NCBI GenBank assembly: GCA_021780535.1
Contig: JAJXYN010000009.1
Span: 303,923-367,922 of the forward strand
Direction of reading: 5' to 3'
Source of the DNA: a bacterium
GTDB lineage: Bacteria; Patescibacteriota; Patescibacteriia; JAGPKW01
DNA length: 64,000 nucleotides
This document shows positions 8,588 to 39,037 of this stretch, one piece after another (position 1 is the stretch's first letter; each line of letters starts with the position of its first letter). The position numbers and the translations under genes were made by a program. The notes below the pieces were generated by a model. The model saw nothing but the letters and a program-made list of their open reading frames with translations. It made no database searches and had not been told where the DNA came from.

Positions 8588-8677
8588 GGAGAGGTGGCTG
8601 AGCGGTTGAAAGCACCACACTGCTAACGTGGCAGGGCCTAAAAACCCTCGCAGGTTCAAATCCTGTCCTCTCCGCCA
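8588..8677 (+). tRNA. tRNA-Ser (anticodon GCU)
   Basis: GGAGAGG acceptor stem pairing CCTCTCC, anticodon loop CUGCUAA, long variable arm, T-loop TTCAAAT, 3' GCCA encoded. Confidence 0.85.
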
Positions 8678-9062
8678 TACAGGGCTACCGAGATGCCTAG
8701 TTTTACTATGATGGCATTGATGAAACCCCATTAAATCACCAGAGTTTGGTGATTTTTTGTTTTTTTATTTCTCTAAGATTGGTCAATAAATTTTTGATAA
8801 ATTTCTCAATTTTCGAATATCTTGAAATGCAGACTAGAAATTAACTAAAAACTCCCATTAAAAAATAATTAAACTTGGTTCGAAACCTGTTTGCTCTGTT
8901 GGTAACTAGAGCTTCGCAAGGTTTTTGGTTATGTTAATATACTAATACCAACGCGATATTTGGTCTTATTTGGTAAATTAACAAAAATAAAATAGATACT
9001 TCTCTATAATCGAAAGGTATCTAAATTTATAAAATCTTAATTTTTAATAATAGAGATTAAGA
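8672..9062 (+). repeat. Flank repeat copy A: last 6 nt of tRNA-Ser plus ~385 bp of downstream sequence, repeated at 31021..31412 (and partially at 36283..36410)
   Basis: Direct comparison: ccgccatacagggctaccgagatgcctagttttactatgatggcatt...ttggttcgaaacct...taatagagattaag present in both places with ~90% identity. Confidence 0.8.
8733..8768 (+). terminator. Rho-independent terminator downstream of tRNA-Ser
   Basis: atcacca-gagtt-tggtgat hairpin followed by ttttttgttttttt; same element recurs in the two other flank copies. Confidence 0.6.
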
Positions 9063-9769
9063 ATATATTTAACTAAGAACTGGAGGTAATAAACTCCAGT
9101 TAAAATAAAGATAGAAGCTGTTACATATCTTAATATTTTTTCTACTTTAGATACTATATTTAAAGCTTTACTTAACTTATTAAAACTATAAGCTATTATA
9201 AAAGAAAATAATATTACAGGTAGACCGGTTCCTATCCCAAAGAAAGGAGCTAATAAAAATCCAAAATTAGTTTTAAGTATTAAAGGAATTAATATTCCAA
9301 AAAATAAAGCACCACTATAGGGACAAAAAGCTAAAGAAAATAAAATACCCATAAAAAATGAACCAATATAACCCTTAGTAGATAAATGATTTTTTAGTTG
9401 TTCTATCCTCTTATTTCTTATATTAATGTTTATTTTAATAACACCAAACATTAATAACCCTAATAGTATTAGAACTGGCCCTAAAACTTTATCGCCCCAT
9501 CCTTGAAATAGGCTGGATATTTTGAAAGATGATAAACCAAAATAAATTAGAAGAGCTATTAAAGTATAACTTAAAGATCTTCCTAAAGTATAAAATAAGC
9601 CACTTAAAATAGTTTTCTTTTGAGATTTTAAATCTTTTGAAATATATGCAACTGCAGTTATGTTTGTAGCAAGAGGACAAGGGCTAATTGATACTATAAC
9701 ACCCAAAAGAAAAGCTGTTATCAGTGGAATATTTGATGATTCTATTATTGTATTTATAAAATTTAACAT
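9044..9769 (-). CDS. CcdA/DsbD-family transmembrane thiol-disulfide electron transfer protein
   Basis: VSISPCPLATN first-Cys motif in TM1 as in CcdA (SPCVLP), multiple TM helices. Confidence 0.6.
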   Translation of the reverse strand: MLNFINTIIESSNIPLITAFLLGVIVSISPCPLATNITAVAYISKDLKSQKKTILSGLFYTLGRSLSYTLIALLIYFGLSSFKISSLFQGWGDKVLGPVLILLGLLMFGVIKININIRNKRIEQLKNHLSTKGYIGSFFMGILFSLAFCPYSGALFFGILIPLILKTNFGFLLAPFFGIGTGLPVILFSFIIAYSFNKLSKALNIVSKVEKILRYVTASIFILTGVYYLQFLVKYILNLYY

Positions 9770-9773
9770 ATTT

Positions 9774-10238
9774 CTATAATAAAGACCTTATTCTTGTTTC
9801 TAAATAATCCATAAACTTTTGCTTATCAGTAACAAGCATCCATAATTTACTCTCGTAACTAATATTATCTTTATTATCTTTAATCCCATTTATATATAAA
9901 GAAGATCCACTAGCTTGGAATTTTTCACCCAATGCTTTATTTTCTGGTAAATCTAAATTTATTTCTTTAAATATTATTTTTCCATTATTAAATTCAGTTA
10001 GAAATTTTGTTTCTATGGTTTCTTTTGCATACTTACCTAAATTAATACAAGAGATACATCTTTGTGTGTTATGAAATACAAAAACTTCTATTTTATCAGA
10101 TTGTATATTAGATATATGAACTTCTTGGTTTTTGGCTATATTATTTGAATTATTTCTATCTTTAGAGAAAGTTAATACTGAAATAAATATTGAAACTATA
10201 ATTAAACTAGCAGATAAAATTATTATCTTTTTATTCAT
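9774..10238 (-). CDS. Thioredoxin-like CxxC (CISC) membrane-anchored protein, likely CcdA partner
   Basis: N-terminal TM/signal, single RCISC motif; genomic context between permease and CcdA. Confidence 0.35.
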   Translation of the reverse strand: MNKKIIILSASLIIVSIFISVLTFSKDRNNSNNIAKNQEVHISNIQSDKIEVFVFHNTQRCISCINLGKYAKETIETKFLTEFNNGKIIFKEINLDLPENKALGEKFQASGSSLYINGIKDNKDNISYESKLWMLVTDKQKFMDYLETRIRSLL

Positions 10239-10246
10239 AATTGTTA

Positions 10247-11221
10247 TTATAAGATTATATTAAATAAATATCCTAAAATTATTATAAACAAACTAATTAA
10301 ACCAAAGAATATTAATAACAATTTCATCTTCATAACTTTCTTAAGAAGAATAGCTTCTGGTAACGATAAGCCAACTATAGCCATCATAAAAGCTAATGCT
10401 GTACCAATTGGAACTCCTTTTTGTATTAAAGCTTGAATTATAGGAAGAACCCCAGCTGCATTTGAATACATTGGTACACCTATTAGAACAGCAACGGGAA
10501 CGGCAAATGGATTATCTTTGCTTATATAATGCTCAAAAAATCCAGTAGGAACAAATCCATGTATTGCAGCTCCTATAGAAATACCTATTAAAATATATAA
10601 CAAAACCTTTTTTACAATAGATAGGGATTCTCTCAATATACTTGGTATATTTTTAAAAATAGTTCCTTTTTTTATTATTACTTGAGCTGCATTATTTTCT
10701 CTAATATTTTTTACAAAATCAGTAAGCTCATTTTCTAATTTTAATTTCCCAAGTACAAATCCACCAATAATTCCTAATAATATTGCAGATATTACATAAA
10801 TAGAGGTTATCCTTAATCCAAACATTCCAATGAACATTGCGACTGCGACTTCGTTTACTAGCGGAGATGTAATAAGGAATGAAAAAGTAACACCAAGAGG
10901 AATTCCGCCCTTAACAAACCCTATGAATAAAGGAATGGATGAGCAAGAACAAAACGGAGTTACTGCTCCAAATAGTGAAGCAATAATATATTCTAATCCA
11001 TATAACTTATTTTTAGATAAAAAATTCCTTACTTTTTCTACTGGAAAATAGAAATTAATAATACCCATTATAAAACTAATTATAAATAGAAGTATTATGA
11101 TTTTTATTGAATCATAAATAAAAAAATTTACAGAATTAGCTAGATTAGAATTCTTTATTAAATGAAATAGATTGTATGTTACTAAATCTGAAAAACTTTG
11201 TATTGGTTGAAATATATCCAT
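10247..11221 (-). CDS. ArsP-like permease (DUF318/YraQ family)
   Basis: VTPFCSCSSIP matches the conserved TPFCSCS motif of ArsP organoarsenical efflux permeases; 8+ TM helices. Confidence 0.7.
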   Translation of the reverse strand: MDIFQPIQSFSDLVTYNLFHLIKNSNLANSVNFFIYDSIKIIILLFIISFIMGIINFYFPVEKVRNFLSKNKLYGLEYIIASLFGAVTPFCSCSSIPLFIGFVKGGIPLGVTFSFLITSPLVNEVAVAMFIGMFGLRITSIYVISAILLGIIGGFVLGKLKLENELTDFVKNIRENNAAQVIIKKGTIFKNIPSILRESLSIVKKVLLYILIGISIGAAIHGFVPTGFFEHYISKDNPFAVPVAVLIGVPMYSNAAGVLPIIQALIQKGVPIGTALAFMMAIVGLSLPEAILLKKVMKMKLLLIFFGLISLFIIILGYLFNIIL

Positions 11222-11238
11222 AATATACTAATTATTTA

Positions 11239-11610
11239 TTAAGCAGCACCACCAGTGCCAGAGCATTTTCCTCCACAATCACATTGAGCAGTTTTATTAC
11301 AATCACAATCCTCACCACAATCAGATTTATCATCACAGCCACAACCCTTAAACTCAAAGTTATCTTTTACCGATTTTTCAACCATTTCTTTTAATTCTTC
11401 TTTTGATGGCAATACACCTACTAAAATTGGTTTATTATTTATGGCAAGCACTGGACTACTCATAACACCCATAGCTATTATTTCTGAAATATCTGTAACA
11501 TATTCAACATTTAACTCAAATCCTAATTCTTTTACCACTTCTTGTGTTAATTCATGTAATTTTTTACATTTTGCACAACCTGAACCTAAAACTTTTATTT
11601 TGATTTCCAT
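11239..11610 (-). CDS. Redox-active disulfide protein 2 (thioredoxin-fold, GCxKC) with Cys/Asp-rich C-terminal tail
   Basis: IKIKVLGSGCAKCKKL...VTDISEIIAMGVMSSPVLAINNK matches the small Trx-fold family found beside DUF318 permeases; C-terminal 40 aa carries nine Cys, eight of them in Cys-Asp/Asp-Cys pairs. Confidence 0.8.
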   Translation of the reverse strand: MEIKIKVLGSGCAKCKKLHELTQEVVKELGFELNVEYVTDISEIIAMGVMSSPVLAINNKPILVGVLPSKEELKEMVEKSVKDNFEFKGCGCDDKSDCGEDCDCNKTAQCDCGGKCSGTGGAA

Positions 11611-11617
11611 ATTTATT

Positions 11618-11929
11618 TTATTTAATACTTAAAAAACTATTTAATAATGATGAATACTTTTTAATAATATCTTTATTTAAAGAATAAAAAACTTTTAAAC
11701 CAACTTTATTTGATTTTAATAAATTAAAATATTTCATCACTCTTAAATGATGAGATATAAGGTTTTGGGGAATATCTAAAAACTCTTGTATTTCACATAC
11801 ACATCTTTCTTTGTTTTTAAGAAAGCATACTGTTTTTAATCTATTTTCTTCTGATATTATTTTTAGAAAATCTATCATTTCCGACATCTCTAAACTAATG
11901 TCTTTACAATTGAAACATTCTTTTTGCAT
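11618..11929 (-). CDS. arsR: ArsR/SmtB-family metalloregulator
   Basis: ERCVCEIQEFL (ELCVCD-type metal site) followed by HTH ...QNLISHHLRVMK. Confidence 0.85.
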   Translation of the reverse strand: MQKECFNCKDISLEMSEMIDFLKIISEENRLKTVCFLKNKERCVCEIQEFLDIPQNLISHHLRVMKYFNLLKSNKVGLKVFYSLNKDIIKKYSSLLNSFLSIK

Positions 11930-11943
11930 ATTATTAAGATAAG

Positions 11944-11965
11944 TATATCAATTTATATTGATATA
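11944..11965. promoter_or_regulatory. Putative ArsR operator (8-bp arms inverted repeat tatatcaa-N6-ttgatata) immediately upstream of arsR
   Basis: Perfect inverted repeat; identical element upstream of the second arsR paralog at 39038..39059. Confidence 0.55.
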
Positions 11966-12002
11966 GTATAACTTATTTTATAAATGGTCAAATGTTTATA
12001 AA

Positions 12003-13304
12003 TTAATTTTTAATTAAATTAATTTTCTTGTTTTTCATTATAAATTTATTCTTAAACATACCCATAAACTGTCTTTTTTCTTCTATAGAACCGTGGTTTA
12101 GTATAAACTTGGCATAATCTACTAAGTCTACCTTTCTATCGTTCATACCTCGTTCTACGTTGTTTATTTTAAGTACTTGTTTTTGTAGATGAGCAAATCT
12201 TTCCACTTCTATTCTTAACTTTTCTTTAATGTCTTCTTCTGGAATATCAATATCTTTTAGAAGTTTTATTATTTGCTCTATAAATTGTTCTTCTCTAATA
12301 TATCTATTACTACACTTAAGATCTTTTGTTCTATTACATCCATAGTAAATATATTTATTTACTCCACCATTTTTTAATTTCTTGTGTTTTTCCACCGCAC
12401 ATAAATTAGAGCTGCAATGACCACAAATCATAGAACCTAGAAAAGCAAACTCTTTTTCTCCATATTTGTAACTAGCTTTTCCTAATTTTATTTTTCTTTG
12501 AACGATTTCAAATAATTCTTTTGTAATTATTGGTTGATGATTTCCTTGGCACCAATTACCACTTCCTGCTGGATATTCAAACCATCCATAGTAAAATGGT
12601 CTACCAAGTAATATGTAGATATTTGCTAAAGACAGATTCTTACCACTTTTTGTTGTGAAATTTTGTTTTACAAACCAACTATGCAAAGCCCTACCAGAAT
12701 AGTTTTCATAAGCTACTTTCTCAAACGCTTGTTTGATTATTGGAGCTCTTTCAGGATCTGGAATTACTACTCCTGTTTTATTTTTTCTTTCATCATTAAG
12801 ATAGCCGATAGGAGCAACTCCTATCCAAAATCCTTTTGATGTTTTAATTTTCAAACCTCTTTTTACATTGATACTTTTATTATCATTCTCAAGTTTAGCC
12901 TGACCACCAAGTACTGCTAATAGAAATTTATCATTTGGTGTATTTTTAAAGTTTTGATTATACGTTCTTATTTCTTTAAGATAACTACCGTCTATTAAAT
13001 CTATAATACTTCCTAAATCTCCAGCATTTCTTGAAAGTCTATCAGTATTCCATGTTAGAATACCTTCGAATTTACCTTGTCTTAATTCTTTTATCATTTC
13101 ATTAAATATCGGCCTCTGACTTGAAGCTTTTGCAGAATGAGCCTCTTTTTTTATGCAAACCACATTAAGATTATCTCTTTCTGCTATTAAACTCATTTCA
13201 TTTTCTTGAGCTTCTATTGAAAGAGCCTGTTTTTCATCTTCTTCACTAGATTTTCTAGCATAAAGACAGTATCTAATTTCTGACGAAAACCCTTTGTTTT
13301 CCAT
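12003..13304 (-). CDS. Large serine recombinase (resolvase N-domain + recombinase domain + zinc ribbon)
   Basis: YARKSS (catalytic Ser region), RLSRN, recombinase-domain body and C-terminal CGHCSS...YYGC zinc ribbon. Confidence 0.85.
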   Translation of the reverse strand: MENKGFSSEIRYCLYARKSSEEDEKQALSIEAQENEMSLIAERDNLNVVCIKKEAHSAKASSQRPIFNEMIKELRQGKFEGILTWNTDRLSRNAGDLGSIIDLIDGSYLKEIRTYNQNFKNTPNDKFLLAVLGGQAKLENDNKSINVKRGLKIKTSKGFWIGVAPIGYLNDERKNKTGVVIPDPERAPIIKQAFEKVAYENYSGRALHSWFVKQNFTTKSGKNLSLANIYILLGRPFYYGWFEYPAGSGNWCQGNHQPIITKELFEIVQRKIKLGKASYKYGEKEFAFLGSMICGHCSSNLCAVEKHKKLKNGGVNKYIYYGCNRTKDLKCSNRYIREEQFIEQIIKLLKDIDIPEEDIKEKLRIEVERFAHLQKQVLKINNVERGMNDRKVDLVDYAKFILNHGSIEEKRQFMGMFKNKFIMKNKKINLIKN

Positions 13305-13398
13305 ATATTTATCATTAATTTGTTATCTATACACATTAATGACGCAACCCATCTAGTGCGTCTAGGATGAGCTGTTGGTAAGTAGTTGGTAAATAAAA
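13305..13398. repeat. Conserved right-end sequence of recombinase modules (near-identical to 34199..34291), containing candidate recombination site gttatctatacacattaatgacgcaa with internal inverted repeat gacgca-N10-tgcgtc
   Basis: Only 3 mismatches to the module-B copy across the ~94-bp block, three over ~25 bp near its 3' end, then identity ends abruptly; a variant of the core (tttgttatctatatacattaatgacgcaa) at 30770..30800. Confidence 0.6.
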
Positions 13399-13424
13399 AA
13401 AGATACAATTAATGTACCTTCTTT

Positions 13425-23247: not shown

Positions 23248-23249
23248 TT

Positions 23250-25839: not shown

Positions 25840-26400
25840 TTATTTTGTTGTATCCTTATAATCAAAAACTATTCTCATATTCATCTTTTTGAAAACATCT
25901 TCATCTATAACTATTGGTAGCTTATCAGAAGACACAAACGTTCTTTTTTTGTTACTAGGCTTATCCATACTGCTAAACATAGCCTTGCCATCATTAAATA
26001 TAACTAGCTCATCTTTTTTCATAAAGAATCTTCCTTGTTTACCGTTTTTCTTACTTTTACTAATACCTCTTATTAAGTCATTTGTATTAGAATGAGTAAA
26101 ATTATGAGCCCCTATATCTGTTAAGCAAACACCTTCTACTTTATTAACTACCATTTTAATATCAAATCCGGGTTTATACATCTGTTTAATATTATCAGCT
26201 TGTTCGCTAATAATACTAGAAGTTCTTTTTATTATTTCCTCATCACTAGAAGCATTATCTAAACCAAGTTTATCAATGGCGAATAAATCAAATATAAAAT
26301 TCATTTGAATACCATCTACAAGATATTGTATCTTTAAAGAATCCATATTTGAATTTCTGTAATCTGTTATAGTTTTTGAGAAGGTAATGTTTTCATCCAT
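25840..26400 (-). CDS. Hypothetical protein (prophage region)
   Basis: ORF only. Confidence 0.3.
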   Translation of the reverse strand: MDENITFSKTITDYRNSNMDSLKIQYLVDGIQMNFIFDLFAIDKLGLDNASSDEEIIKRTSSIISEQADNIKQMYKPGFDIKMVVNKVEGVCLTDIGAHNFTHSNTNDLIRGISKSKKNGKQGRFFMKKDELVIFNDGKAMFSSMDKPSNKKRTFVSSDKLPIVIDEDVFKKMNMRIVFDYKDTTK

Positions 26401-26409
26401 TTTGTTTTA

Positions 26410-26652
26410 TTAAAATTTAGTATCTATTATCTTAGACTCATTACCATAAGAATCAGAATCTCTGAATTTATTATTTCTACCTTGTATTTTCAGTTCTGAT
26501 TTTTGATGTATTGCTATAGACCTTGCTTTTTCTATTGCTTCTTTTTGAGTATTGAATAAAAATGTCATTTTGCTATTATTTTCTCCCTTTACACCCCAAT
26601 CTTTTTTGCTTTTATTGTTTTTTAGTTTTACAACATATTGATTTTTTCCCAT
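26410..26652 (-). CDS. DUF2188-family small protein
   Basis: WGVKGENNSKMTFLFNTQKEAIEKARSIA...RDSDSYGNE fits the DUF2188 pattern. Confidence 0.5.
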   Translation of the reverse strand: MGKNQYVVKLKNNKSKKDWGVKGENNSKMTFLFNTQKEAIEKARSIAIHQKSELKIQGRNNKFRDSDSYGNESKIIDTKF

Positions 26653-26822
26653 TTTATTTTTTGTTAATATTTAGATTATTATTTGAACTTAAGCCTTTAT
26701 TGTCTGTATACCCACAATCTGGACAAGTTCCTTGTGGTTTTGGTTTTTCTTGGTTACAATTTGGACAAGGATTTACGTCCTTTTGATTTATTTCTTTATC
26801 AAACATAAATTTAGATTAATGG

Positions 26823-27134
26823 TTAGTACTTATTTTGAATATTATATTTTGGCTTGAACTTGAAAATTTCACTCTTTTCTAAATCCTCAGCTTCTTTTAT
26901 TGTTGAGCAGGTGCAATAATTAAAATGTGTAATTCCATACCACTCATTAGCTTGAATATGTTGTAAAAGCCTTCCTCTTACACCTTGCTCGCTTGTAGCT
27001 TTTCCTACATAGTCTACATTTATTGTACCCTGTTGATTTGCTTGTCCTAGGTAATAAATTCCTATAACATTTGAATTCCAATTAGAGATAGTATTCTTAT
27101 CATAACTAAATGGTCCTTTGTAAAATTGAATCAT
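26823..27134 (-). CDS. Small stand-alone GIY-YIG nuclease-domain protein
   Basis: GIYYLG...(10 aa)...DYVGKA, then R (VRGRLLQH) and downstream E/N residues. Confidence 0.55.
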   Translation of the reverse strand: MIQFYKGPFSYDKNTISNWNSNVIGIYYLGQANQQGTINVDYVGKATSEQGVRGRLLQHIQANEWYGITHFNYCTCSTIKEAEDLEKSEIFKFKPKYNIQNKY

Positions 27135-27338
27135 ATTTCTAAAATTACTTAATTAATTTATAAATTCTGACCTTTGAAGGAGAGATTTTTAACGCTTATA
27201 GGTAGTATACAATAAAAAAATATTTTTGTAAACAAGTGAAAGTGTTTTTTAAAAATATTAACTTATTTAAATTAAAACTTTACATATGTAAACTTTTAGT
27301 ATAAAATACTAGTAGATAACAAAGAAATCACACAAAAT

Positions 27339-27986
27339 ATGACAAAAAATGAGGAATTTTTACTTAAGAAAATAAAGGATAACAAATTAGACGGATTATC
27401 TCTTAGAGAAATATCTGATTTAATACCAAATAGTGCTGGAAATGCAGGAACAGCACAATATTATTTAGAAAAACTTCAAAAAAATGGTTATATAATTTGG
27501 AATAGAACAAGAAAGAAAATTGTTTTACTTGGTGAAGTTGTTAAACAAAACATAAAATCAAATGTTCTTAGGCTCCCTTTTTATGGATATGCTAATTGTG
27601 GAGAAGCTTTATCTTTTGCAGATAATACCATTGAAAGATTTATAGAAGTATCATCTCCAATTTTAAAAAACAAAACTCAAGATGATCTTTTTATAGTTCA
27701 AGCAGATGGAGATTCTATGAATTTGCAGGAAATTAATGGTAAAAAAATAGAAAGTGGTGACTTTATTATTATTGATAAAAGTGAAATCAATGATTTGAAA
27801 AATGGTGATTGTGTTCTATCAATAATAAATGGAATGGCTAATATAAAAATATATAATAAAAGTGTTAAAGATGATTATATAAAATTGGAACCAAATTCCT
27901 CAAACAAGAATCATTTTCCGATATTTATTCATGAAGATGGAAATTTCACTATAGCAGGAAAGATTTTAGAAATAATAAAAAAATAA
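27339..27986 (+). CDS. LexA/CI-like repressor (HTH + S24 peptidase domain)
   Basis: N-terminal winged HTH (LSLREISDLIP...YYLEKLQKNGYI); GDSM serine motif and downstream Lys in C-terminal S24 domain. Confidence 0.75.
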   Translation: MTKNEEFLLKKIKDNKLDGLSLREISDLIPNSAGNAGTAQYYLEKLQKNGYIIWNRTRKKIVLLGEVVKQNIKSNVLRLPFYGYANCGEALSFADNTIERFIEVSSPILKNKTQDDLFIVQADGDSMNLQEINGKKIESGDFIIIDKSEINDLKNGDCVLSIINGMANIKIYNKSVKDDYIKLEPNSSNKNHFPIFIHEDGNFTIAGKILEIIKK

Positions 27987-28035: not shown

Positions 28036-29217
28036 ATGTCTAAAAATCTAAAAGAAAAACAATATTATGAAGACCTATATGATTCTGAAACAATAGAAGA
28101 TTGTAAGAGAATGTTTTGTAATTCTACTGATAGAAAGTTTTTAGACAAAGAAATTAATAAATATAAAGACAAGAAATCGGCATCAGAAATGTTAAATAAA
28201 TGGGCTGATACAGTTGATAAAATAGGTCTATATTTCTTTAAAGGAGATAGATATAGAAAAAGAGAAGAAACAATAAGAGAATGGATGGCAAAAGATAGAA
28301 ATAGAGACCAAAAACTGGAAAATACAAATTTGGAAAATATTAAATGTAAATATTGTAATACCCTAATGGATTTAATAGATAAAGATTATTTTCCAAAGAA
28401 TATTGAACCATTAGAAGAATCTATATTATTTATCTACAGTTGTCCTAAGTGTAAAAAATCTAGAGCAATATTTGAAAATAATGAGGAATATATTCCAAAA
28501 AAAGTATTATGTCCTAAATGTAATAATGAACTAGATGTAAAAGGAAATGCAACCGAAGACAAGCTTATAACAACTTATAAATGCAATAATTGTGATTATA
28601 TAAATATTGATGAGATAGAAAGATTTAAACCAGAAAATAAAGAAATAGATTATGAACAATTTCTAAAAAATAAAAAAGAATATTGTTTAGATGATAAAGA
28701 AGGAATGGAATATGTTTCTCAATCTATAAGACTAGAAAGTCTCACAAAAGAATTCGAGAAAGATAAAGAAAAAGAAAAACAGAAAGCAACATACGATAAA
28801 ATAAAAGAACTTAATAAACCCAAAATATTTGACTTACAAGAACTTTTATCAAAAGGATTAGAAAAATATAAGTTTGTTAAATTAAATTTTAAAGAACCAC
28901 AAATTGAGAAGTTTATCACTATAGAATTTACAATTTATGACTCAGAAAGCTCTAGAAGTGAATATGATGCTAAAAATATATTACAAAAGCAAATAGAAGC
29001 AATATTAAAAGAAACTAATTGGATTTTGATGAGTGATGGAATTAGCTATAGATTAGGAATGTTGTCTGGAAGATTAAAAGCTTATGAAAGAGAAGAAGAT
29101 TTAGTTGAATTAGTTAATAAAAGATTTAAAGATCTAAAACCTAAAGAAGAAAAAATAGACTCAAACAGAAAAGACTGGGTTGTGAAAGGTGCAAACGGAG
29201 AGGATATAACTTTATGA
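28036..29217 (+). CDS. Multi-zinc-ribbon protein, unknown function
   Basis: CKYCN..CPKCK and CPKCN..CNNCD; its 3' ~95 bp is duplicated at 36112..36207. Confidence 0.4.
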   Translation: MSKNLKEKQYYEDLYDSETIEDCKRMFCNSTDRKFLDKEINKYKDKKSASEMLNKWADTVDKIGLYFFKGDRYRKREETIREWMAKDRNRDQKLENTNLENIKCKYCNTLMDLIDKDYFPKNIEPLEESILFIYSCPKCKKSRAIFENNEEYIPKKVLCPKCNNELDVKGNATEDKLITTYKCNNCDYINIDEIERFKPENKEIDYEQFLKNKKEYCLDDKEGMEYVSQSIRLESLTKEFEKDKEKEKQKATYDKIKELNKPKIFDLQELLSKGLEKYKFVKLNFKEPQIEKFITIEFTIYDSESSRSEYDAKNILQKQIEAILKETNWILMSDGISYRLGMLSGRLKAYEREEDLVELVNKRFKDLKPKEEKIDSNRKDWVVKGANGEDITL

Positions 29218-29637: not shown

Positions 29638-30102
29638 ATGAATGACGAAAATAAAAGAAAACACTTAGAAATGATACAAAATATAGTTACTAGAATGGGA
29701 AATAATTTATTTTTCCTAAAAGGTTGGTCTATTACAATAATAGCAGCTATATATGCTATTCTTGCAAAAGATATAAGTTTAAAATACATGATTTTCGCAG
29801 CAATTCTTCTTATAATACTATGGATTCTTGACGGTTATTTCTTACATCAAGAAAGATGTTTTAGAGATTTATATGATGCTGTAAGAATTAAAAAAGAAGA
29901 AGATATAGACTATTCTATGAATATAAAAGAATATATAAAAGGAAAAAATACTTGGTTAAAATCAATGTTTTCAAAAACATTAAATATATTTTATGGATCA
30001 ATGTTATTTTTAATAATTATTATGATTGTGTTATCAAATATTAAAATAAATATATCTATTACTTGGAACAATCAAAACAATAATCAAATAATACAAAAAT
30101 AG
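29638..30102 (+). CDS. Small 3-TM membrane protein, translationally coupled to downstream TIR-like gene
   Basis: Predicted TM helices WSITIIAAIYAIL, MIFAAILLIILWIL, SMLFLIIIMIVL; stop at 30102, next start at 30104. Confidence 0.45.
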   Translation: MNDENKRKHLEMIQNIVTRMGNNLFFLKGWSITIIAAIYAILAKDISLKYMIFAAILLIILWILDGYFLHQERCFRDLYDAVRIKKEEDIDYSMNIKEYIKGKNTWLKSMFSKTLNIFYGSMLFLIIIMIVLSNIKINISITWNNQNNNQIIQK

Positions 30103-30103
30103 A

Positions 30104-30763
30104 ATGGGCAGAAAAATATTTGTTAGCTATAAATATGCTGATTCATCTGTTCCGGATTTAAATCTTGGTGAACAGACAACTGTTAGGCATTATGTTGATA
30201 TAATACAAGGACTTTTATCAGAAGAAGATCATATAAACAAGGGTGAAAACGATGGAGAAGATTTAAGTTCTTTTAAAGAAAGTACGATAGAATCAAAATT
30301 AAGAGATAAAATATTTGATAGCACTATAACAATAGTTTTAATATCAAAAAACATGAAAGATCCTAGCAAGAATGAATCAGACCAGTGGATACCTTGGGAG
30401 GTTTCATATTCATTAAAAGAGATTACAAGAGGAGATAAAACAAGTGGCACAAATGCCATGTTAGCAGTTGTTTTACCAGATGAAAAAAATGATTATTCCT
30501 ATTTCGTAAATCACTTTGCTTGTACTACAAGTTGGAATACAGATATACTTTTTAAAATTCTTGGAAATAATATGTTTAATAGGAATAATAAAAATTTAAT
30601 CTCATGCCAAACTTGTGGAGGAACGCATCATATAGACGATGATCACTCATATATTCACCCAGTAAAATGGTGCGATTTCATAAAAGATATAAATAAATAT
30701 ATAGATATAGCTTTAAAAATGAATAATAATCTCAATGAATATAAAATTCAAAAGGAATTATAA
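30104..30763 (+). CDS. TIR-like domain protein (ThsB/DUF1863-like) with Cys/His-rich C-terminus
   Basis: KIFVSYKYADS N-terminal strand motif and SDQWIPWEVSYSL (W-x-x-E) motif as in ThsB (RVFFSFHYQD ... RRWVRYEIMKS); recalled alignment, not computed. Confidence 0.6.
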   Translation: MGRKIFVSYKYADSSVPDLNLGEQTTVRHYVDIIQGLLSEEDHINKGENDGEDLSSFKESTIESKLRDKIFDSTITIVLISKNMKDPSKNESDQWIPWEVSYSLKEITRGDKTSGTNAMLAVVLPDEKNDYSYFVNHFACTTSWNTDILFKILGNNMFNRNNKNLISCQTCGGTHHIDDDHSYIHPVKWCDFIKDINKYIDIALKMNNNLNEYKIQKEL

Positions 30764-30906
30764 TTTTGTTTTTGTTATCTATATACATTAATGACGCAAT
30801 AAAAATCACATATCTAGCAGTTGATAACTTATAATATTTTAGGCTAATATTAGCTATATTATGCTGATATTTATCTATAAAGTCAAGTTAAAAACCTTCT
30901 ATTTTT

Positions 30907-31020
30907 TATGTGTAACATTTGTAACATTTTTTTGCGACCGAGATGCCTCATTTTTCTCCAAAATCCTACCCCCAAAACCCCTTATGGTGCTTGTATGTGT
31001 GGGTACCAGACCGAGGCTTC
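30907..31020 (+). repeat. ~115-bp repeat unit (tgtgtaacatttgtaacattt...gcgACCGAGATGCCtcatttttctcc...cttcccgcc), second copy at 35475..35629
   Basis: ~85% identity between copies; contains a second instance of the accgagatgcc motif also present just downstream of tRNA-Ser. Confidence 0.7.
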
Positions 31021-31412
31021 CCGCCATACAGGGCTACCGAGATGCCTAGTTTTACTATGATGGCATTGAGTTATCCCAGAAAAATCATCAGAAATGGTGA
31101 TTTTTTGTTTTTTTATTTCTCTAAGGTTGGTCAATAAATTTTTTATAAATTTCTCAATTTTCGAATACCTTGAAATGCAGATTATAAATTAATGAAAATC
31201 CCTCATTAATAAACAATTAAATTTGGTTCGAAACCTAGATGCTCTGTTGGTAACTAGAGCTTCGCAAGGTTTTTGGTTATGTTAACATACTAATACCAAC
31301 GCGACATTTCGGTCTTATTTGGTAAATTAACAAAAATAAAAAAAGATACTTCTCTATAATCGAAAGGCGTCTAAATTATAAAATCTTAATTTTTAATAAT
31401 AGAGATTAAGAA
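31021..31412 (+). repeat. Flank repeat copy B (partial tRNA-Ser 3' end ccgcca + downstream flank)
   Basis: See copy A; terminator hairpin variant atcatca-gaaa-tggtgat. Confidence 0.8.
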
Positions 31413-31541
31413 AAATATTTAATAAATTAACTAATAATATATGATTTAAAATCTTCATCATTTCTTCATTTTGATTTGATATGATTTGTAGTTATTGGTT
31501 TATGGAGTTAGAATTATTTAATAAATATATAATTATAATTT

Positions 31542-32882
31542 ATGTCAGATAACATAAAACAAGAAGAAGCTAATCAACAAAATGACAATAAAATATTAAG
31601 TAAAGAAAAGGAAAAAGAACTAGATTTTTTCATTACAACTCCATTAAGATCAGCTAACAATTTAATGAACAAATTATATAGCGATGATAGTTTTTATGAA
31701 ACAACTACTTATGCATTTGTTTCACCAGGAGATGCTAAAAAACTTTTTTTCTATGGAGCGTGTAAGGAGGTATTAAAAACCTGTATATATTTAATGAACA
31801 ATAAAGAATTTCTAGGAGGATCTATAAATGATAAAGATTTTGGTATTGTAGAAAAAGTAATAATGGGGTCAACAATAGATACTCAAACATATCATAGAAG
31901 AAAGATGGTGGAGCTATTAAGTATTGTTATATTATTTGATAGAAACACTAAACATGATGAAGAATACAGAATATATAAATCAGCTGAGAATTTAGATTTA
32001 TTCCTAAGCAGACAATCTGATTTTAAAGAACTTTTTAATGGAAAAATAATATTAAATACTCAACATTCAATAGATGATTTTATAGGAAGGATTGATAGTG
32101 ATAAAAAAGCCATCGAACTTACAGATGTTTGGTTTTTAAATGAAAAAAAACTAAAAAATCAAACTCCAGGTATATTTAAGAGCAAAAAAGGAATATATGA
32201 TTCAGCAATGCTTGTTGCTACTCCTGATGAAAAAATAGCTCTTGGTATATCCTATGGCCGTGGCTATTCTCGTGCTAGTCAATCAATTCATCCAATGTTA
32301 GGAAGTAGTAATTATGGTAAAGAAGATAATGATATCGAACATGTACTTATGAATTCAATTTATATGTCAATTATATGTATGCAAATAATGCATATAGCCT
32401 ATAAGTTAACTGGTTTTGAGGATGAATTTGGATTATCAAAAATCATGGGAACTAATTTTGAAAAATCAGAAGCATCTAAATCAATTGGAGTTTTACAGAA
32501 AGATTTTGATAAAGGAGATCTTATACTTACTTCATGGACAGATATTGCAGAAATAATTGATGAAGAAACAAGTAAATACGGATATAAGGCTTATAAAATA
32601 AAATATCTTTTAACACCACCGCTACCAGAATATCCAGAAGATTGGATAGAAGCACAAAACATATTAGCGCGTATATTATCAAAAAAAACTGTAAGAAAAA
32701 TGTTTAACAATATGGTTATAGAAAAAATGTCTAAAGATGTTATTGAATTATGGCCCGATGTATTAAAACAACCAGATGAAGAACTTATGAAATCAGCAAA
32801 ACATGTGTTTATTGATTTACATAAAGCCAATGTCTTGATACCAATGTTACTAAAAAGTGGTTTCTTAAAGAAAACTAGTTAA
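31542..32882 (+). CDS. Hypothetical 446-aa protein (sole cargo of module B)
   Basis: Intact ORF, host-like composition, no recognisable motif. Confidence 0.45.
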   Translation: MSDNIKQEEANQQNDNKILSKEKEKELDFFITTPLRSANNLMNKLYSDDSFYETTTYAFVSPGDAKKLFFYGACKEVLKTCIYLMNNKEFLGGSINDKDFGIVEKVIMGSTIDTQTYHRRKMVELLSIVILFDRNTKHDEEYRIYKSAENLDLFLSRQSDFKELFNGKIILNTQHSIDDFIGRIDSDKKAIELTDVWFLNEKKLKNQTPGIFKSKKGIYDSAMLVATPDEKIALGISYGRGYSRASQSIHPMLGSSNYGKEDNDIEHVLMNSIYMSIICMQIMHIAYKLTGFEDEFGLSKIMGTNFEKSEASKSIGVLQKDFDKGDLILTSWTDIAEIIDEETSKYGYKAYKIKYLLTPPLPEYPEDWIEAQNILARILSKKTVRKMFNNMVIEKMSKDVIELWPDVLKQPDEELMKSAKHVFIDLHKANVLIPMLLKSGFLKKTS

Positions 32883-32896
32883 TATTAGTAAGAATA

Positions 32897-34198
32897 TTAA
32901 TTTTTTATTAAACTAATCTTCTTATTTTTCATTACAAACTTATTCTTAAACATACCCATAAACTGTCTTTTTTCTTCTATAGAACCGTGATTTAATATAA
33001 ACTTGGCATAATCTACCAAGTCTACTTTTCTATCGTTCATACCTCTTTCTACATTGTTTATTTTTAGTACTTGTTTTTGTAGATGAGCAAATCTTTCTAC
33101 TTCTATTCTTAACTTTTCTTTAATGTCTTCTTCGGGAATATCAATATCTTTTAGAAGCTTTACTATTTGCTCTATAAATTGTTCTTCTCTAATATATCTA
33201 TTACTACATTTAAGATCTTTTGTTCTATTACATCCATAGTAAATATATTTATTTACTCCACCATTTTTTAATTTCTTATGTTTTTCTACTGCACATAAAT
33301 TAGAACTACAATGGCCACAAATCATAGACCCTAAGAATGCAAATTCTTTTTCTCCATATCTATAACTAGCTTTTCCTAATTTTATTTTTCTTTGAACTAT
33401 TTCAAAGAGTTCTTTTGTAATTATTGGTTGATGATTTCCTTGGCACCAATTACCACTTCCTGCTGGATATTCAAACCATCCATAATAAAAAGGCCTTCCA
33501 AGTAGTATATAGATATTTGCTAAGGATAAATTCTTACCACTTTTTGTCGTGAAATTTTGCTTTACAAACCAACTATGTAAAGCTCTACCAGAATAGTTTT
33601 CATAAGCCACCTTCTCAAATGCTTGTTTAATTATTGGGGCTCTTTCAGTATCTGGAATTACTACTCCTGTTTTATTTTTTCTTTCATCATTAAGATATCC
33701 AATAGGCGCAACTCCTATCCAAAATCCTTTTGATGTTTTAATTTTAAGACCTCTTTTTACATTGATACTTTTATTATCATTCTCAAGTTTAGCCTGACCG
33801 CCAAGTACAGCTAATAGAAATTTATCATTCGGAGTATTTTTAAAGTTTTGATTATATGTTCTTATTTCTTTCAGGTAACTACTATCTATCAGGTCTATTA
33901 TACTTCCTAAATCCCCGGCATTTCTTGAAAGTCTATCAGTATTCCATGTTAGAATACCTTCAAATTTTCCTTGTCTTAATTCTTTTATCATTTCATTAAA
34001 TACTGGTCTTTGACTTGAAGCTTTTGCAGAATGGGCTTCTTTTTTTATACAAACTACATTTAAACTATCTCTTTCTGCTATTAAACTCATTTCATTCTCT
34101 TGAGCTTCTATCGAAAGAGCTTGTTTTTCGTCTTCTTCACTAGATTTTCTAGCATAAAGACAATATCTAATTTCTGATGAAAACCCTTTGTTTTCCAT
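32897..34198 (-). CDS. Large serine recombinase (second copy)
   Basis: 8 aa differences from 12003..13304 over 433 aa. Confidence 0.85.
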   Translation of the reverse strand: MENKGFSSEIRYCLYARKSSEEDEKQALSIEAQENEMSLIAERDSLNVVCIKKEAHSAKASSQRPVFNEMIKELRQGKFEGILTWNTDRLSRNAGDLGSIIDLIDSSYLKEIRTYNQNFKNTPNDKFLLAVLGGQAKLENDNKSINVKRGLKIKTSKGFWIGVAPIGYLNDERKNKTGVVIPDTERAPIIKQAFEKVAYENYSGRALHSWFVKQNFTTKSGKNLSLANIYILLGRPFYYGWFEYPAGSGNWCQGNHQPIITKELFEIVQRKIKLGKASYRYGEKEFAFLGSMICGHCSSNLCAVEKHKKLKNGGVNKYIYYGCNRTKDLKCSNRYIREEQFIEQIVKLLKDIDIPEEDIKEKLRIEVERFAHLQKQVLKINNVERGMNDRKVDLVDYAKFILNHGSIEEKRQFMGMFKNKFVMKNKKISLIKN

Positions 34199-34339
34199 AT
34201 ATTTATCATTAATTTGTTATCTATACACATTAATGACGCAACCCATCTAGTGCGTCTAGGATGAGTTGTTGGTAAGTTGTAGGTAAATAAAAAAGAGCCC
34301 TGTTGTCAGGGCTCTACTCAAGAAAGATTGACTTGTGTG

Positions 34340-34864
34340 TTACTTGTCTTTCTTCACTATGAGTTTTGGCGCATCGATGTTGAGAGGCGCCCCGGAGTAA
34401 ATGTAGGTAGCGTTGGCACCTGCAAATTCAACCGGATTTCCGTCGGGAAGGAAGAAGTGGATACCTGGGTTGTTTTTACCATAGGTACCGTCCAGATCAG
34501 GAGCATCAACAATTTGGTACGAATAATTACCACTAAAGTTGAATTTCTGCATCATTTGTTCAGGGTAAATGTACGACTGAGTTGAGGCAGGCTTTCCTTC
34601 GGTTACGAAATAGCCAATGCAGTAGTTACCCACAAAGATGTAGGTATATGCCGGTACGCTTGGCTTGTTCCAATACTCGTACCAACGCTTCTGCGTCATG
34701 GCTTCCTGGAAGTAGTCGAGCTTAGGCGGACCACCAATTGCCTCAATGACCGCTTTAGCATTTTCTTCCTGGGACTTTTCCAGTTGTTGCCTGGCGGTTG
34801 GTTCCCAACTACAACCCGAGAGAACGGCTCCAACAAGGAGCAACAAAAAAACGAGTTTTCTCAT
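34340..34864 (-). CDS. Lipoprotein, compositionally foreign (~48% GC)
   Basis: LSGC lipobox after signal peptide; 4-nt overlap with upstream gene. Confidence 0.5.
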   Translation of the reverse strand: MRKLVFLLLLVGAVLSGCSWEPTARQQLEKSQEENAKAVIEAIGGPPKLDYFQEAMTQKRWYEYWNKPSVPAYTYIFVGNYCIGYFVTEGKPASTQSYIYPEQMMQKFNFSGNYSYQIVDAPDLDGTYGKNNPGIHFFLPDGNPVEFAGANATYIYSGAPLNIDAPKLIVKKDK

Positions 34865-35307
34865 TTTTCACCTCCGATAGTATCGTTGACCATTTGGATC
34901 TCATAAGGCAGATCCTCAGCCTTCCACAAATTTCTGGTCTTCTGCTTTGACCGACTGTTGTACTGCTGGATCTGATTGTTGAGAATCATTTTCAGACCAG
35001 TGTAATCAGTCAGGCGAAGACTGTTGGTATCAGTGCCCCTGGAAAGCTCGAAAGCTTCCTTGGCGGCGGCCAGGTTTGCTTTTGATGCATCAATCTGAGC
35101 CTTCTGGTCGTAAAACCATTGGTAATCAGAGATGATCTTGTGCGGATCAGTGACCTCGGAAACGATACCGGTTGCGATGCTGAACGGCCAAATGTGAGCG
35201 ATGGCGCTCACACCAAGATAGATACCAACAACAATAATGATGCCGATAATCCACTTGACAGTTTTCTTCGAGGTAGCTTCTTCAAGCTCGTCCCTCAGAT
35301 ATCCCAT
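34861..35307 (-). CDS. N-terminally TM-anchored protein, compositionally foreign, canonical GGAGG SD
   Basis: GGAGG 7 nt upstream of ATG (absent from host genes); single N-terminal TM. Confidence 0.5.
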   Translation of the reverse strand: MGYLRDELEEATSKKTVKWIIGIIIVVGIYLGVSAIAHIWPFSIATGIVSEVTDPHKIISDYQWFYDQKAQIDASKANLAAAKEAFELSRGTDTNSLRLTDYTGLKMILNNQIQQYNSRSKQKTRNLWKAEDLPYEIQMVNDTIGGEK

Positions 35308-35703
35308 ACGTACCTCCTTGTCCTATTTTGGACTCTATTACTATAACATAAATAGTACATTTTGTCAATTATTTTTGCCATCTTTACTTATTATTTTTAT
35401 TTAATACTATTCAATAAAATATAAACATTTTTGAATATGTAGTGTCGCATATGTCGCATTAAATTTGTCTTTTTTTGTGTAACATTTGTAACATTTTACA
35501 TCCTATGTACTGTCTAATTTGTCCAATTTTTACCTCTGCGACCGAGATGCATCATTTTTCTCCAAAACCCTACTCTTAAAACCCCTTATGGTACTTGTAT
35601 GTATGAGTACCAAACCGAGACTTCCCGCCTTCGCTCGCTATAGCGAGCTTCAGCGGATAAATCCGCAAGGATATTATTCAAAGAAAATACTCCATTAAAA
35701 AAT

Positions 35704-35726
35704 CTCGCGAAAGCGGGCTTTTTTAA
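35704..35726 (+). terminator. Hairpin + T-run (ctcgc-GAAA-gcggg-ctttttt), preceded by two short perfect palindromes
   Basis: gctcgctatagcgagc and gcggataaatccgc palindromes at 35631..35668 then terminator-like hairpin. Confidence 0.35.
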
Positions 35727-35992: not shown

Positions 35993-36111
35993 ATTAATCT
36001 ATAAATTCATTATAAATATACTACTTGTGTGATTTAATCTTATTAACATTTTAGTAACTTTAAAAAAATTTAATAGCTATGTAGAATGATTATAAATATT
36101 GATAAATCAAA

Positions 36112-36207
36112 CAATATTAAAAGAAACTAATTGGATTTTAATGAGTGATGGGATTAGTTATAGATTAGGAATGTTGTCTAGGAGATTAAAAGCTTATGAA
36201 AGAGAGG
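36112..36207 (+). pseudogene. Orphan duplicated fragment of the 3' end of gene 28036..29217
   Basis: ~90% nucleotide identity to 29000..29095, no upstream reading frame. Confidence 0.6.
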
Positions 36208-36282
36208 AATAGGATGCCTAATTTAGACAATAAATGAGCGATAGCGAATATTATTGTCTTATCCTCGTAGTGGGTTTACTAT

Positions 36283-36410
36283 GATGGCATTAATGAAACC
36301 CATTAAATCACCAGAGTTTGGTGATTTTTTAGTTAATAAAAGAACGAAGTGAATATTATTAACTTATCCCAGAATGAGATTGTTTTTTTATTTCTCTAAG
36401 GTTATTGGAA
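36283..36410 (+). repeat. Flank repeat copy C (partial), carrying both terminator-hairpin variants
   Basis: ttactatgatggcattaatgaaacccattaaatcaccagagtttggtgatttttt ... gtttttttatttctctaagg. Confidence 0.65.
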
Positions 36411-38703: not shown

Positions 38704-38708
38704 ATTTT

Positions 38709-39026: not shown

Positions 39027-39037
39027 ATTATTAAAAC

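What the first reader, a model, noticed from the sequence alone, without database searches (positions are those of the whole stretch)
31542..32882. Unknown 446-aa protein is the sole cargo of recombinase module B
Module A carries a recognisable resistance cassette in the slot between the shared left arm and the recombinase. Module B carries a single 446-aa ORF with no motif I can recognise.
- Cargo slots of small integrative modules are usually filled with selectable functions (resistance or defence).
- This makes the protein a prime candidate for an undescribed single-gene defence or abortive-infection function.
Basis: inference. Interest (0 to 1): 0.65.

Follow-up and report, generated by a model that had tools for sequence, protein, structure and literature searches.

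The report
Orphan enzyme-like cargo of recombinase module
The 446-aa gene is real, intact and the only gene in the swappable slot of a small serine-recombinase element; it belongs to a strongly conserved, uncharacterised protein family (a distant branch of Pfam DUF5677) with no solved-structure or phage-protein match, which repeatedly sits beside recombinases and anti-phage genes, so a defence role is likely but unproven.

Summary
ORF 31542-32882 (+) is an intact 446-codon gene. It is the only gene between the left arm and the large serine recombinase (LSR) that modules A and B share. Four metagenomic relatives have the same arms, sit at a tRNA-Ser, and each carries different cargo, so the slot is truly variable.

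"No recognisable motif" is nearly right. The protein has no hit in Pfam, PADLOC, PHROGs, NCBIfam or PDB sequences. A confident AlphaFold model (pLDDT 84) has no significant PDB or BFVD fold match. It does belong to a family of about 450 clusters at 50% identity, found mainly in candidate-phyla-radiation (CPR) and other uncultured bacteria. In that family, 41 of 110 distant members hit Pfam DUF5677.

Invariant R120 and H250, with E124, Y238 and S246, and dN/dS of about 0.04 suggest an enzyme. Of 17 independent loci, 5 have an LSR within about 7 kb and 5 have known defence genes within about 5 kb. No partner gene is conserved.

The defence reading is the best guess (about 0.4) but is only contextual. 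The one DUF5677 protein tested elsewhere was not among the candidates reported to protect. It is a new member of a known kind of locus, of moderate interest.

The parts
31542..32882 (+). ORF446: intact 446-aa cytoplasmic protein of a divergent DUF5677-related family. It has a helical N-domain (about residues 20-320), a Tudor/SH3-like beta-barrel (about 327-379) and a C-terminal helical bundle.
31021..31541 (.). Left arm of module B. Positions 31021-31422 are shared with module A. Positions 31423-31532 are also conserved in related modules L023, L077, L103 and partly L024. The arm ends where each cargo gene starts and contains a -10-like TAGAAT at 31509-31514, so it is the probable cargo promoter/5' region.
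   Evidence: the promoter is inferred, and the consensus scan did not list it
32897..34198 (-). Large serine recombinase B (433 aa; Resolvase + Recombinase + Zn_ribbon_recom). It is convergent with ORF446, with 14 nt between the two stop codons.
34199..34294 (.). Right end of the module, upstream of the recombinase gene. Similarity to module A, L103, L024 and L023 stops here.
30933..31025 (+). Left copy of the 93-nt repeat X. It ends in CCCGCC at the junction with the left arm, the position a tRNA-Ser 3' end occupies in module A and in all four related modules. It may be a pseudo-attachment site.
35537..35629 (+). Right copy of repeat X (89% identical), followed by three hairpins and a terminator-like site (35630-35725).
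34295..35340 (-). GC-rich (about 45-50%, against 26% for the window) two-gene cassette: a 174-aa lipoprotein-like ORF and a 148-aa membrane-like ORF. It lies outside the A/B-shared module but inside the X repeats.
8588..13400 (.). Module A, used for comparison: tRNA-Ser(GCT) 8588-8677, left arm 8672-9072, ArsR/thioredoxin-like/ArsP permease/154-aa/DsbD-like cargo 9044-11929 (-), recombinase A 12003-13304 (-), right end to 13400.
29638..30763 (+). Adjacent candidate defence pair just outside module B: PDC-M50A-like (29638-30102) and ThsB-like TIR protein (30104-30763).

Best explanation
ORF446 is a functional stand-alone accessory gene carried as interchangeable cargo in the expression slot of a small tRNA-Ser-type integrative module. 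The module consists of a left arm with a conserved upstream region, the cargo, and a convergent large serine recombinase.

The protein is a cytoplasmic, enzyme-like member of a large uncharacterised family distantly related to Pfam DUF5677. I infer that a polar cluster on the helical domain (R120, E124, Y238, S246, H250) is a hydrolytic active site. I also infer that the Tudor/SH3-like barrel and C-terminal helices act in recognition or regulation.

Its most likely biological role is a single-gene conflict function, either anti-phage/abortive infection or competition between mobile elements, that benefits the element's host.

Shown: the gene is real, its slot is variable, the family is wide and strongly constrained, and it recurs beside recombinases and defence genes.

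Inferred: catalysis, the roles of the domains, and the defence role itself.
For: Gene and family:
- The gene is intact, with 83 close clusters and 449 representatives at 50% identity. Nearly all are 420-460 aa with a single architecture.
- hhalign between the close and the distant sets gives probability 100%, E 2e-90.
- 41 of 110 distant members hit DUF5677, best E 1.5e-8, always over the region that maps to residues about 107-265.
- R120 and H250 are invariant. E124, F132, Y238, S246, G325 and D326 are at least 95% conserved across 110 divergent sequences.
- dN/dS is 0.03-0.06 where synonymous sites are not saturated.
- No transmembrane segment was found.

Slot variability:
- L023/L103, L077 and L024 share both arms and an 82-84% identical recombinase, and all sit at a tRNA-Ser. 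They carry three further, unrelated cargoes.
- One of these cargo proteins has a weak HEPN hit.

Context of family members:
- An LSR lies within about 7 kb in 5 of 17 independent loci. These include L019, which has the same tail-to-tail layout although its LSR is only 36% identical.
- Known defence genes lie within about 5 kb in 5 of 17 loci.
- One homologue lies directly after a tmRNA gene.
- One member is fused to a SLOG ligand-sensor domain.

Independent literature: DUF5677 is statistically enriched next to serine recombinases in Bacillota (PMC12632615).
Against: - PADLOC gives no match for the ORF or for 110 relatives.
- No known effector fold was matched.
- The invariant S246 and H250 lie in a low-confidence loop of the model.
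- I could not inspect model coordinates, so spatial clustering of the conserved residues is not shown.
- The DUF5677 ORF tested in E. faecalis was not among the five protective candidates.
- Several homologues sit among housekeeping genes with no defence or mobile-element marker.
- Such strong purifying selection and 60% identity across phyla fit a conserved enzymatic function of any kind, not defence specifically.
- The module A slot holds an ArsR/redox-permease cassette, so the slot is not restricted to defence genes.
Confidence: 0.4

Rival explanations
1. ORF446 is a non-defence accessory enzyme or regulator, a 'moron' with a stress, metabolic or nucleic-acid-modification role. It is carried in the slot because it gives the host some other selectable benefit, as the ArsR/thioredoxin/permease cassette of module A probably does.
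For: - dN/dS is about 0.04 and identity is 60% across phyla.
- Homologues lie between housekeeping genes in L104, L106, L012 and L006.
- There is no PADLOC match.
- The tested DUF5677 protein was not reported as protective.
- Module A shows that the slot accepts non-defence cargo.
Against: - The family is very patchy: 9 of 185,579 GTDB species representatives.
- It recurs beside LSRs and defence genes.
- It lies at integration hot spots: tmRNA, and tRNA-Trp nearby.
- No metabolic operon partner is conserved.
Confidence: 0.3
2. ORF446 is an addiction or stabilisation toxin of the mobile element, or a self-contained toxin with an internal regulatory domain, that penalises loss of the module.
For: - It is a single conserved gene in minimal integrative elements, such as L005, which has only LSR, Rep and a few ORFs.
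- Its conservation looks enzyme-like.
Against: - No conserved small neighbouring antitoxin gene was found across 17 loci.
- In the window nothing lies between it and the recombinase.
- Many copies are not in recognisable elements.
Confidence: 0.1
3. ORF446 is an accessory factor of the large serine recombinase, either a recombination directionality factor or a targeting factor.
For: - It recurs next to LSRs, twice in the same convergent tail-to-tail layout (window and L019).
- One family member carries an N-terminal excisionase-type HTH_17 domain.
Against: - Module A and the four related modules have the same or closely related recombinase (98% and 82-84% identity) without it.
- None of 81 loci around relatives of this LSR (0.7 Mb) encodes a family member.
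- 12 of 17 family loci have no LSR nearby.
- The protein is far more conserved (48-60% identity) than the neighbouring LSRs (30-37%), which is not what co-evolving partners would show.
Confidence: 0.05
4. ORF446 is the effector arm of a Thoeris-like pathway together with the ThsB-like TIR protein encoded 780 bp upstream.
For: - A ThsB-like gene is adjacent (PADLOC E 4e-80).
- One family member is fused to a SLOG domain, the sensor type used by ThsA (the role of SLOG in ThsA is from my own knowledge).
Against: - A module boundary (right-end remnant, repeat X, left arm) separates the two genes.
- The TIR gene already has its PADLOC partner PDC-M50A.
- No Pfam TIR domain is recorded among the neighbours of the 11 homologue loci with precomputed annotation. 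Only the nearest neighbours of five further loci (L014, L017, L019, L020, L022) were scanned.
- ORF446 itself has no SLOG, Macro or SIR2 domain.
Confidence: 0.05

Closest known systems
Pfam DUF5677 (PF18928), family of unknown function
   Same: The helical core of the ORF446 family (window residues about 107-265, holding R120, E124, Y238, S246 and H250) is the region that matches the DUF5677 model in 41 of 110 relatives. DUF5677 has also been reported as enriched beside serine recombinases (PMC12632615).
   Different: The window protein and its close relatives do not reach the Pfam model at all. The family is about 440 aa, against a 166-position Pfam model, and has an extra N-terminal helical region, a Tudor/SH3-like barrel and a C-terminal helical bundle. 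It is found mainly in CPR and other uncultured lineages. No function is known for either group.
Serine-recombinase-associated defence loci (RADS; Andersen et al. 2025, bioRxiv, PMC12632615)
   Same: A cargo gene lies directly beside a serine recombinase, the cargo varies between otherwise similar loci, and defence genes are nearby.
   Different: RADS was built on small EF_B0058/Gin-like recombinases whose cargo is predicted to be co-transcribed downstream. Here the recombinase is a 433-aa large serine recombinase, convergent with the cargo, and the cargo appears to be driven from a conserved arm next to a tRNA-Ser junction.
Integrase-adjacent defence hot spots of prophages and satellites (for example P2/P4 hot spots; own knowledge, Rousset et al. 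2022)
   Same: There are conserved flanks with an integrase and a hypervariable one- or two-gene slot, and many slot genes are orphans.
   Different: The recombinase is of a different type and the host lineage is different. None of the slot genes found here matches a validated defence system, and one slot variant is an ArsR/redox-permease cassette.
ThsA-type effectors of Thoeris (effector domain plus SLOG sensor; own knowledge)
   Same: One family member (P0066) has a SLOG domain fused to the ORF446-like domain, and the window copy lies beside a ThsB-like TIR gene.
   Different: ORF446 has no SLOG, SIR2 or Macro domain. The fusion is a single case, and a module boundary separates ORF446 from the TIR gene.

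Membership tests
Pfam DUF5677 (PF18928) | The protein itself matches the Pfam HMM at or above the gathering score (27.1 bits) | tested here: not met
   The window protein has 0 Pfam families at E<=0.01 and 0 at E<=1 (member 1).
Pfam DUF5677 (PF18928) | Homology to bona fide DUF5677 sequences, shown transitively through relatives | tested here: met
   - The A1 profile retrieves the distant members at E<1e-34.
- hhalign of A1 against A3 gives probability 100%, E 2e-90.
- 41 of 110 of these members hit DUF5677, best E 1.5e-8. I estimate that as about 35 bits by scaling from the 21.5 bits at E 2.6e-4 seen.
- The hits always fall on the same region.
Known or candidate anti-phage systems (PADLOC-DB 2.0.0) | Match to any PADLOC protein model | tested here: not met
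   No hit for ORF446. Among 110 relatives there were only scattered single chance-level hits with E>=0.005.
HEPN superfamily RNases | Conserved Rx4-6H motif on a four-helix bundle | tested here: not met
   R244-x5-H250 exists in the window protein, but R244 is replaced by Q, E, S or M in relatives. The invariant Arg (R120) is 130 residues from H250. There are no HEPN Pfam hits.
Thoeris ThsA-type effector | SLOG or Macro sensor domain plus SIR2 or transmembrane effector, genetically paired with ThsB | tested here: not met
   No such domains in ORF446. Only P0066 carries SLOG. No Pfam TIR domain is recorded among the neighbours of the 11 homologue loci with precomputed annotation. Only the nearest neighbours of five further loci (L014, L017, L019, L020, L022) were scanned.
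Recombination directionality factor of large serine recombinases | Consistently encoded with its cognate recombinase (there is no sequence signature) | tested here: not met
   It is absent from module A and from four related modules with the same recombinase lineage. None of 81 LSR-relative loci encodes it.
Recombination directionality factor of large serine recombinases | Stimulates attL x attR recombination by the recombinase | not testable with these tools
   This requires a recombination assay.
Large serine recombinase (neighbouring gene 32897-34198) | Resolvase catalytic domain, Recombinase domain and zinc-ribbon domain | tested here: met
   PF00239 at 3.5e-21, PF07508 at 1.1e-13 and PF13408 at 1.9e-8.
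Variable-cargo integrative module | Conserved arms and recombinase with different genes in the slot in independent genomes | tested here: met
   Six slot contents were found behind the same arms: A, B, L023=L103, L077 and L024. Four of these modules sit at a tRNA-Ser.

The most novel reading that the evidence does not exclude
The ORF446/DUF5677 superfamily is a new single-gene immune or inter-element conflict effector. It has a previously unseen enzymatic helical domain coupled to a Tudor-like barrel. It spreads on serine-recombinase elements and is a notable part of the little-known defence repertoire of CPR (Patescibacteria) and other uncultured bacteria. If true, this would give a first function to DUF5677.
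Probability: 0.3. Interest if true: 0.7.

Novelty: new member of a known kind. Interest (0 to 1): 0.5.

Why it matters
If the family is a defence or conflict effector, several things follow.
- It would give a first function to DUF5677.
- It would add a single-gene system with no solved-structure counterpart.
- It would shed light on immunity in CPR bacteria, where few systems are recognisable.

Independently of that, the tRNA-Ser/large-serine-recombinase module is compact. It has a conserved promoter-bearing arm and a hypervariable one- or two-gene slot. That makes it a natural bait for finding further orphan accessory genes in uncultured low-GC bacteria.

If the gene turns out to be an ordinary accessory enzyme, the finding is routine.

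Tried and rejected
- **Sequence libraries.** Pfam, PADLOC, PHROGs and NCBIfam on the ORF gave nothing. PDB sequence searches with two family profiles gave only noise, E>=0.16.
- **HEPN idea.** Rejected because the Arg of the apparent Rx5H motif is not conserved.
- **Membrane protein idea** (raised by GPCR/rhodopsin-like fold hits). Rejected because no hydrophobic segment was found.
- **Phage- or plasmid-borne gene.** No match in INPHARED or PLSDB. IMG/VR gave only one partial hit.
- **Conserved partner gene.** An all-against-all BLAST of neighbours found only LSRs shared between loci.
- **Two further database searches** meant to reach annotated DUF5677 proteins returned nothing new.
- **Rfam on the repeat-X region.** No credible family.
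- **Host taxonomy.** Not established. Exact-match clusters carry no names.
- **Composition coincidence.** Rows 1-1000 and 32001-33000 have identical composition values, but the sequences are only 31% identical, so it is a coincidence.

Full report
**1. The observation**

The ORF at 31542-32882 (+) is an uninterrupted 446-codon frame. The window is 26% GC. At that composition about one random codon in twelve is a stop, so an open frame of this length is not chance (my arithmetic). Homologues align over 95-100% of its length. The ORF has 27.8% GC, close to the host and to the neighbouring recombinase gene (29%), and it has no hydrophobic segment.

The next gene is convergent, 14 nt away, at 32897-34198 (-). 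It is a 433-aa large serine recombinase (LSR) with Resolvase, Recombinase and Zn_ribbon_recom domains.

**2. The module**

- The left arm 8672-9072 matches 31021-31422 at 90.6%.
- The right arm 12002-13400 matches 32896-34294 at 93%.
- The two recombinases are 98% identical in protein.

Module A starts at the 3' end of a tRNA-Ser(GCT) gene at 8588-8677. Its slot carries ArsR, a thioredoxin-like protein, an ArsP-type permease, a 154-aa ORF and a DsbD-like protein. ORF446 is the only gene in slot B.

A metagenome scan and an IMG/VR scan with the recombinase found close relatives (82-84% nt identity over the complete recombinase genes): L023, L024, L077, L028 and L103. BLASTN shows that L023, L024, L077 and L103 contain both arms. 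ARAGORN shows that each of the four abuts a tRNA-Ser gene. Their slots hold three further, mutually unrelated contents:
- a 404-aa protein (L023 and L103);
- a 164-aa plus a 230-aa protein (L077);
- a 231-aa plus a 355-aa protein (L024).

None of these has a PADLOC hit. The only Pfam hints are a sub-threshold LA2681-like HEPN match (E 2.9e-4) for the 164-aa protein and a weaker sub-threshold HNH_repeat match (E 0.009) for the 230-aa protein. PDB sequence searches of the three cargo proteins I queried (404, 355 and 164 aa) gave nothing.

In these relatives the left arm continues through the stretch that corresponds to window 31423-31532. It ends where each cargo gene starts, and it contains a conserved -10-like TAGAAT at 31509-31514. 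I infer that the arm supplies the cargo promoter. The consensus scan did not list a promoter there, and no Shine-Dalgarno sequence is visible. None is visible for the recombinase gene either.

So this is a compact integrative module, made of arm, cargo and LSR, with a truly hypervariable slot.

**3. Boundary complications**

Module B does not sit at a tRNA. Its left arm abuts a 93-nt sequence, X (30933-31025), that ends in CCCGCC. In module A the tRNA-Ser ends in CTCCGCC at the same position.

A second copy of X (35537-35629, 89% identical) lies beyond a GC-rich two-gene cassette at 34295-35340. It is followed by hairpins and a terminator-like site. That stretch folds with z = -3.9 but matches no Rfam family.

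There are also traces of decayed earlier insertions:
- a 29-nt motif from the region upstream of the recombinase gene recurs at 30771-30799;
- a fragment of the 393-aa gene lies at 36109-36209;
- left-arm fragments lie at 36275-36403.

The region from 8.6 to 36.4 kb therefore looks like a mosaic island. It includes a phage-like block with terminase, methylases and an S24 repressor, which is collinear with the IMG/VR contig L103.

Whether the unit that moved was 31021-34294 or 31026-35629 remains open. In the second case ORF446 would share the element with the GC-rich cassette.

**4. What the protein is**

ORF446 itself has no hit in Pfam, PADLOC, PHROGs or NCBIfam.

*Family size and distribution*
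- It has 83 related clusters at 34-62% identity, all hypothetical proteins.
- A profile search of 1.84 billion representatives gives 449 hits at E<=0.001 and 334 at E<=1e-10. Almost all are 420-460 aa.
- Among GTDB species representatives only nine genomes carry it. All are metagenome-assembled genomes (MAGs): Saccharibacteria, Parcubacteria, Paceibacterota, Glassbacteria, Bacteroidota and Omnitrophota. Another homologue is from Moraniibacteriota.
- There is no match in INPHARED phages or PLSDB plasmids, and only one partial hit in IMG/VR.

*Structure*
- The AlphaFold2 model is confident: pLDDT 83.8, pTM 0.80.
- It has a long-helix domain (about residues 20-320), a five-stranded barrel (327-379) and a C-terminal helical bundle.
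- Foldseek against PDB and BFVD finds nothing at E<=0.001.
- PDB sequence profiles find nothing.

*The link to DUF5677*
- Scanning 110 divergent family members against Pfam gave 41 hits to DUF5677 (PF18928), best E 1.5e-8. No other family was hit by more than two members.
- The individual hits I could see (P0157, P0199, P0217, P0224) all map to window residues about 107-265.
- The close and the distant subsets are homologous over their full length: hhalign probability 100%, E 2e-90.
- The family is therefore a distant, longer branch of DUF5677. The window protein itself does not reach the Pfam model.

*Conservation*
- Across the 110 sequences R120 and H250 are invariant.
- E124, F132, Y238, S246, G325 and D326 are at least 95% conserved.
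- dN/dS is 0.03-0.06 for the pairs whose synonymous sites are not saturated.
- This pattern suggests an enzyme. No catalytic chemistry can be assigned.
- The apparent HEPN-like R244-x5-H250 is not conserved.

*Fusions*

Rare fusions add an N-terminal SLOG (LDcluster4) domain in P0066, two SH3 domains in P0123, or an HTH_17 domain in P0107.

**5. Genomic context of the family**

I examined 17 independent loci. No partner gene is conserved.

The only neighbour shared between independent loci is a large serine recombinase. It occurs in five loci:
- the window;
- L019, which has the same convergent tail-to-tail layout although the LSRs are only 36% identical;
- L010;
- L005, a minimal LSR-plus-Rep element;
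- L105.

Known defence genes lie within about 5 kb in five loci:
- ThsB-like TIR plus PDC-M50A in the window;
- type I RM, EcoRI-type methylase and GmrSD in L003;
- DndB, Vsr and a Dcm-type methylase in L004;
- a type III-like methylase plus ResIII helicase in L022;
- Shedu (SduA_C) in L105.

One homologue lies directly after a tmRNA gene and another near a tRNA-Trp.

Against this, L104, L106, L012 and L006 show mostly housekeeping neighbours. None of the 81 loci around relatives of this LSR encodes a family member. ORF446 is therefore one of many interchangeable cargoes, not a fixed partner of the recombinase.

**6. Literature**

DUF5677 appears in only two papers of the searchable library. 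The relevant one is Andersen et al. 2025 (bioRxiv, PMC12632615).
- It reports that serine recombinases mark anti-phage defence loci.
- It lists DUF5677 among the domains significantly enriched and predicted to be co-transcribed with small serine recombinases in Bacillota.
- It tested one DUF5677 ORF in E. faecalis against six phages.
- The five of nine candidates reported as protective were KAP NTPase, Schlafen, superinfection exclusion, an AAA ATPase and an Abi-like protein, not DUF5677.

The recombinase association is thus independently known, and the single functional test gave no reported protection.

**7. Mechanism**

Best-supported reading (confidence about 0.4): a stand-alone cytoplasmic enzyme-like protein, expressed from the conserved arm, that serves a conflict function, either anti-phage/abortive infection or anti-mobile-element. 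The R/E/Y/S/H cluster would be the active site and the barrel plus C-terminal helices a recognition or regulatory module. The single SLOG fusion suggests that the domain can be placed under ligand control, as effectors are (the role of SLOG is from my own knowledge).

Only the gene's integrity, the family conservation, the slot variability and the contextual associations are shown. The rest is inference.

Rivals:
- a non-defence accessory enzyme (0.3);
- an addiction toxin (0.1);
- an LSR directionality or targeting factor (0.05; argued against);
- a Thoeris-like effector for the adjacent TIR gene (0.05; argued against by the module boundary between them and by the absence of recorded TIR neighbours at the annotated homologue loci).

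**8. Verdict**

The finding is real and correctly described.

The protein is not entirely unplaceable, since it is a divergent DUF5677 relative. The locus type, with variable cargo beside a serine recombinase near defence genes, has been described. I therefore rate it a new member of a known kind. Interest is moderate (0.5), because no member of the superfamily has a known function or a solved structure, and the family is large, tightly constrained and concentrated in uncultured bacteria.

Noticed in passing
window 29638-30763: A two-gene candidate defence pair lies directly upstream of module B: a PDC-M50A-like protein (PADLOC E 4e-48) and a ThsB-like TIR protein (PADLOC E 4e-80; Pfam ThsB_TIR E 7e-5).
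   Followed up: partly
window 30933-31025 and 35537-35629 (plus 30910/35477): A 93-nt direct repeat (89% identical) brackets module B plus a GC-rich cassette. It ends in CCCGCC where a tRNA-Ser 3' end sits in module A and in all related modules. The right copy with its downstream hairpins (35530-35725) folds with z = -3.9 but has no Rfam match. It could be a pseudo-attachment site or an unknown small RNA gene.
   Followed up: partly
window 34295-35340: A segment of about 45-50% GC sits in a 26% GC genome and encodes a 174-aa lipoprotein-like and a 148-aa membrane-like protein on the minus strand. It has no Pfam or PADLOC hit and no DNA match in PLSDB or INPHARED. It looks like a recent foreign insertion.
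   Followed up: partly
window 20164-27986; L103 1-4404: A phage-like block (terminase large subunit, two N6/N4 DNA methylases, one with a ParB_N domain, and an S24 repressor) is collinear with IMG/VR contig L103. In L103 the same tRNA-Ser/arm/cargo/LSR module lies 2.5 kb from it. The module may be the integration end of a prophage-like element.
   Followed up: partly
window 20238-20354: A LOOT RNA (Rfam RF03000, 67 bits) lies at the edge of the phage-like block. The region is conserved in L103 (4169-4404).
   Followed up: no
window 36109-36209, 36275-36403, 30771-30799: Decayed fragments are present: the 3' part of the 393-aa gene (28997-29097), the start of the left arm, and a 29-nt motif from upstream of the recombinase gene. 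They indicate repeated insertion and decay at this island.
   Followed up: partly
window 11612-12023 and 38708-39114: The ArsR gene of module A and its upstream region have an 86% identical paralogue next to a TauE-family gene in the chromosome, outside the island.
   Followed up: no
L014 1024-2439: The divergent neighbour of a homologue is a single ORF that fuses a LexA DNA-binding domain, an S24 peptidase domain and an N6/N4 DNA methylase domain. This is an unusual architecture.
   Followed up: no
L023 3082-4293 (= L103 8300-9514), L024 8299-10103, L077 365-1609: The alternative cargo proteins in the same module slot are all orphans: no PADLOC hit, and no PDB sequence hit for the three I queried. 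One has a weak HEPN-like hit. By eye, another has a CxxC...EH(I)IP motif reminiscent of HNH nucleases. They are further candidates of the same kind as ORF446.
   Followed up: partly
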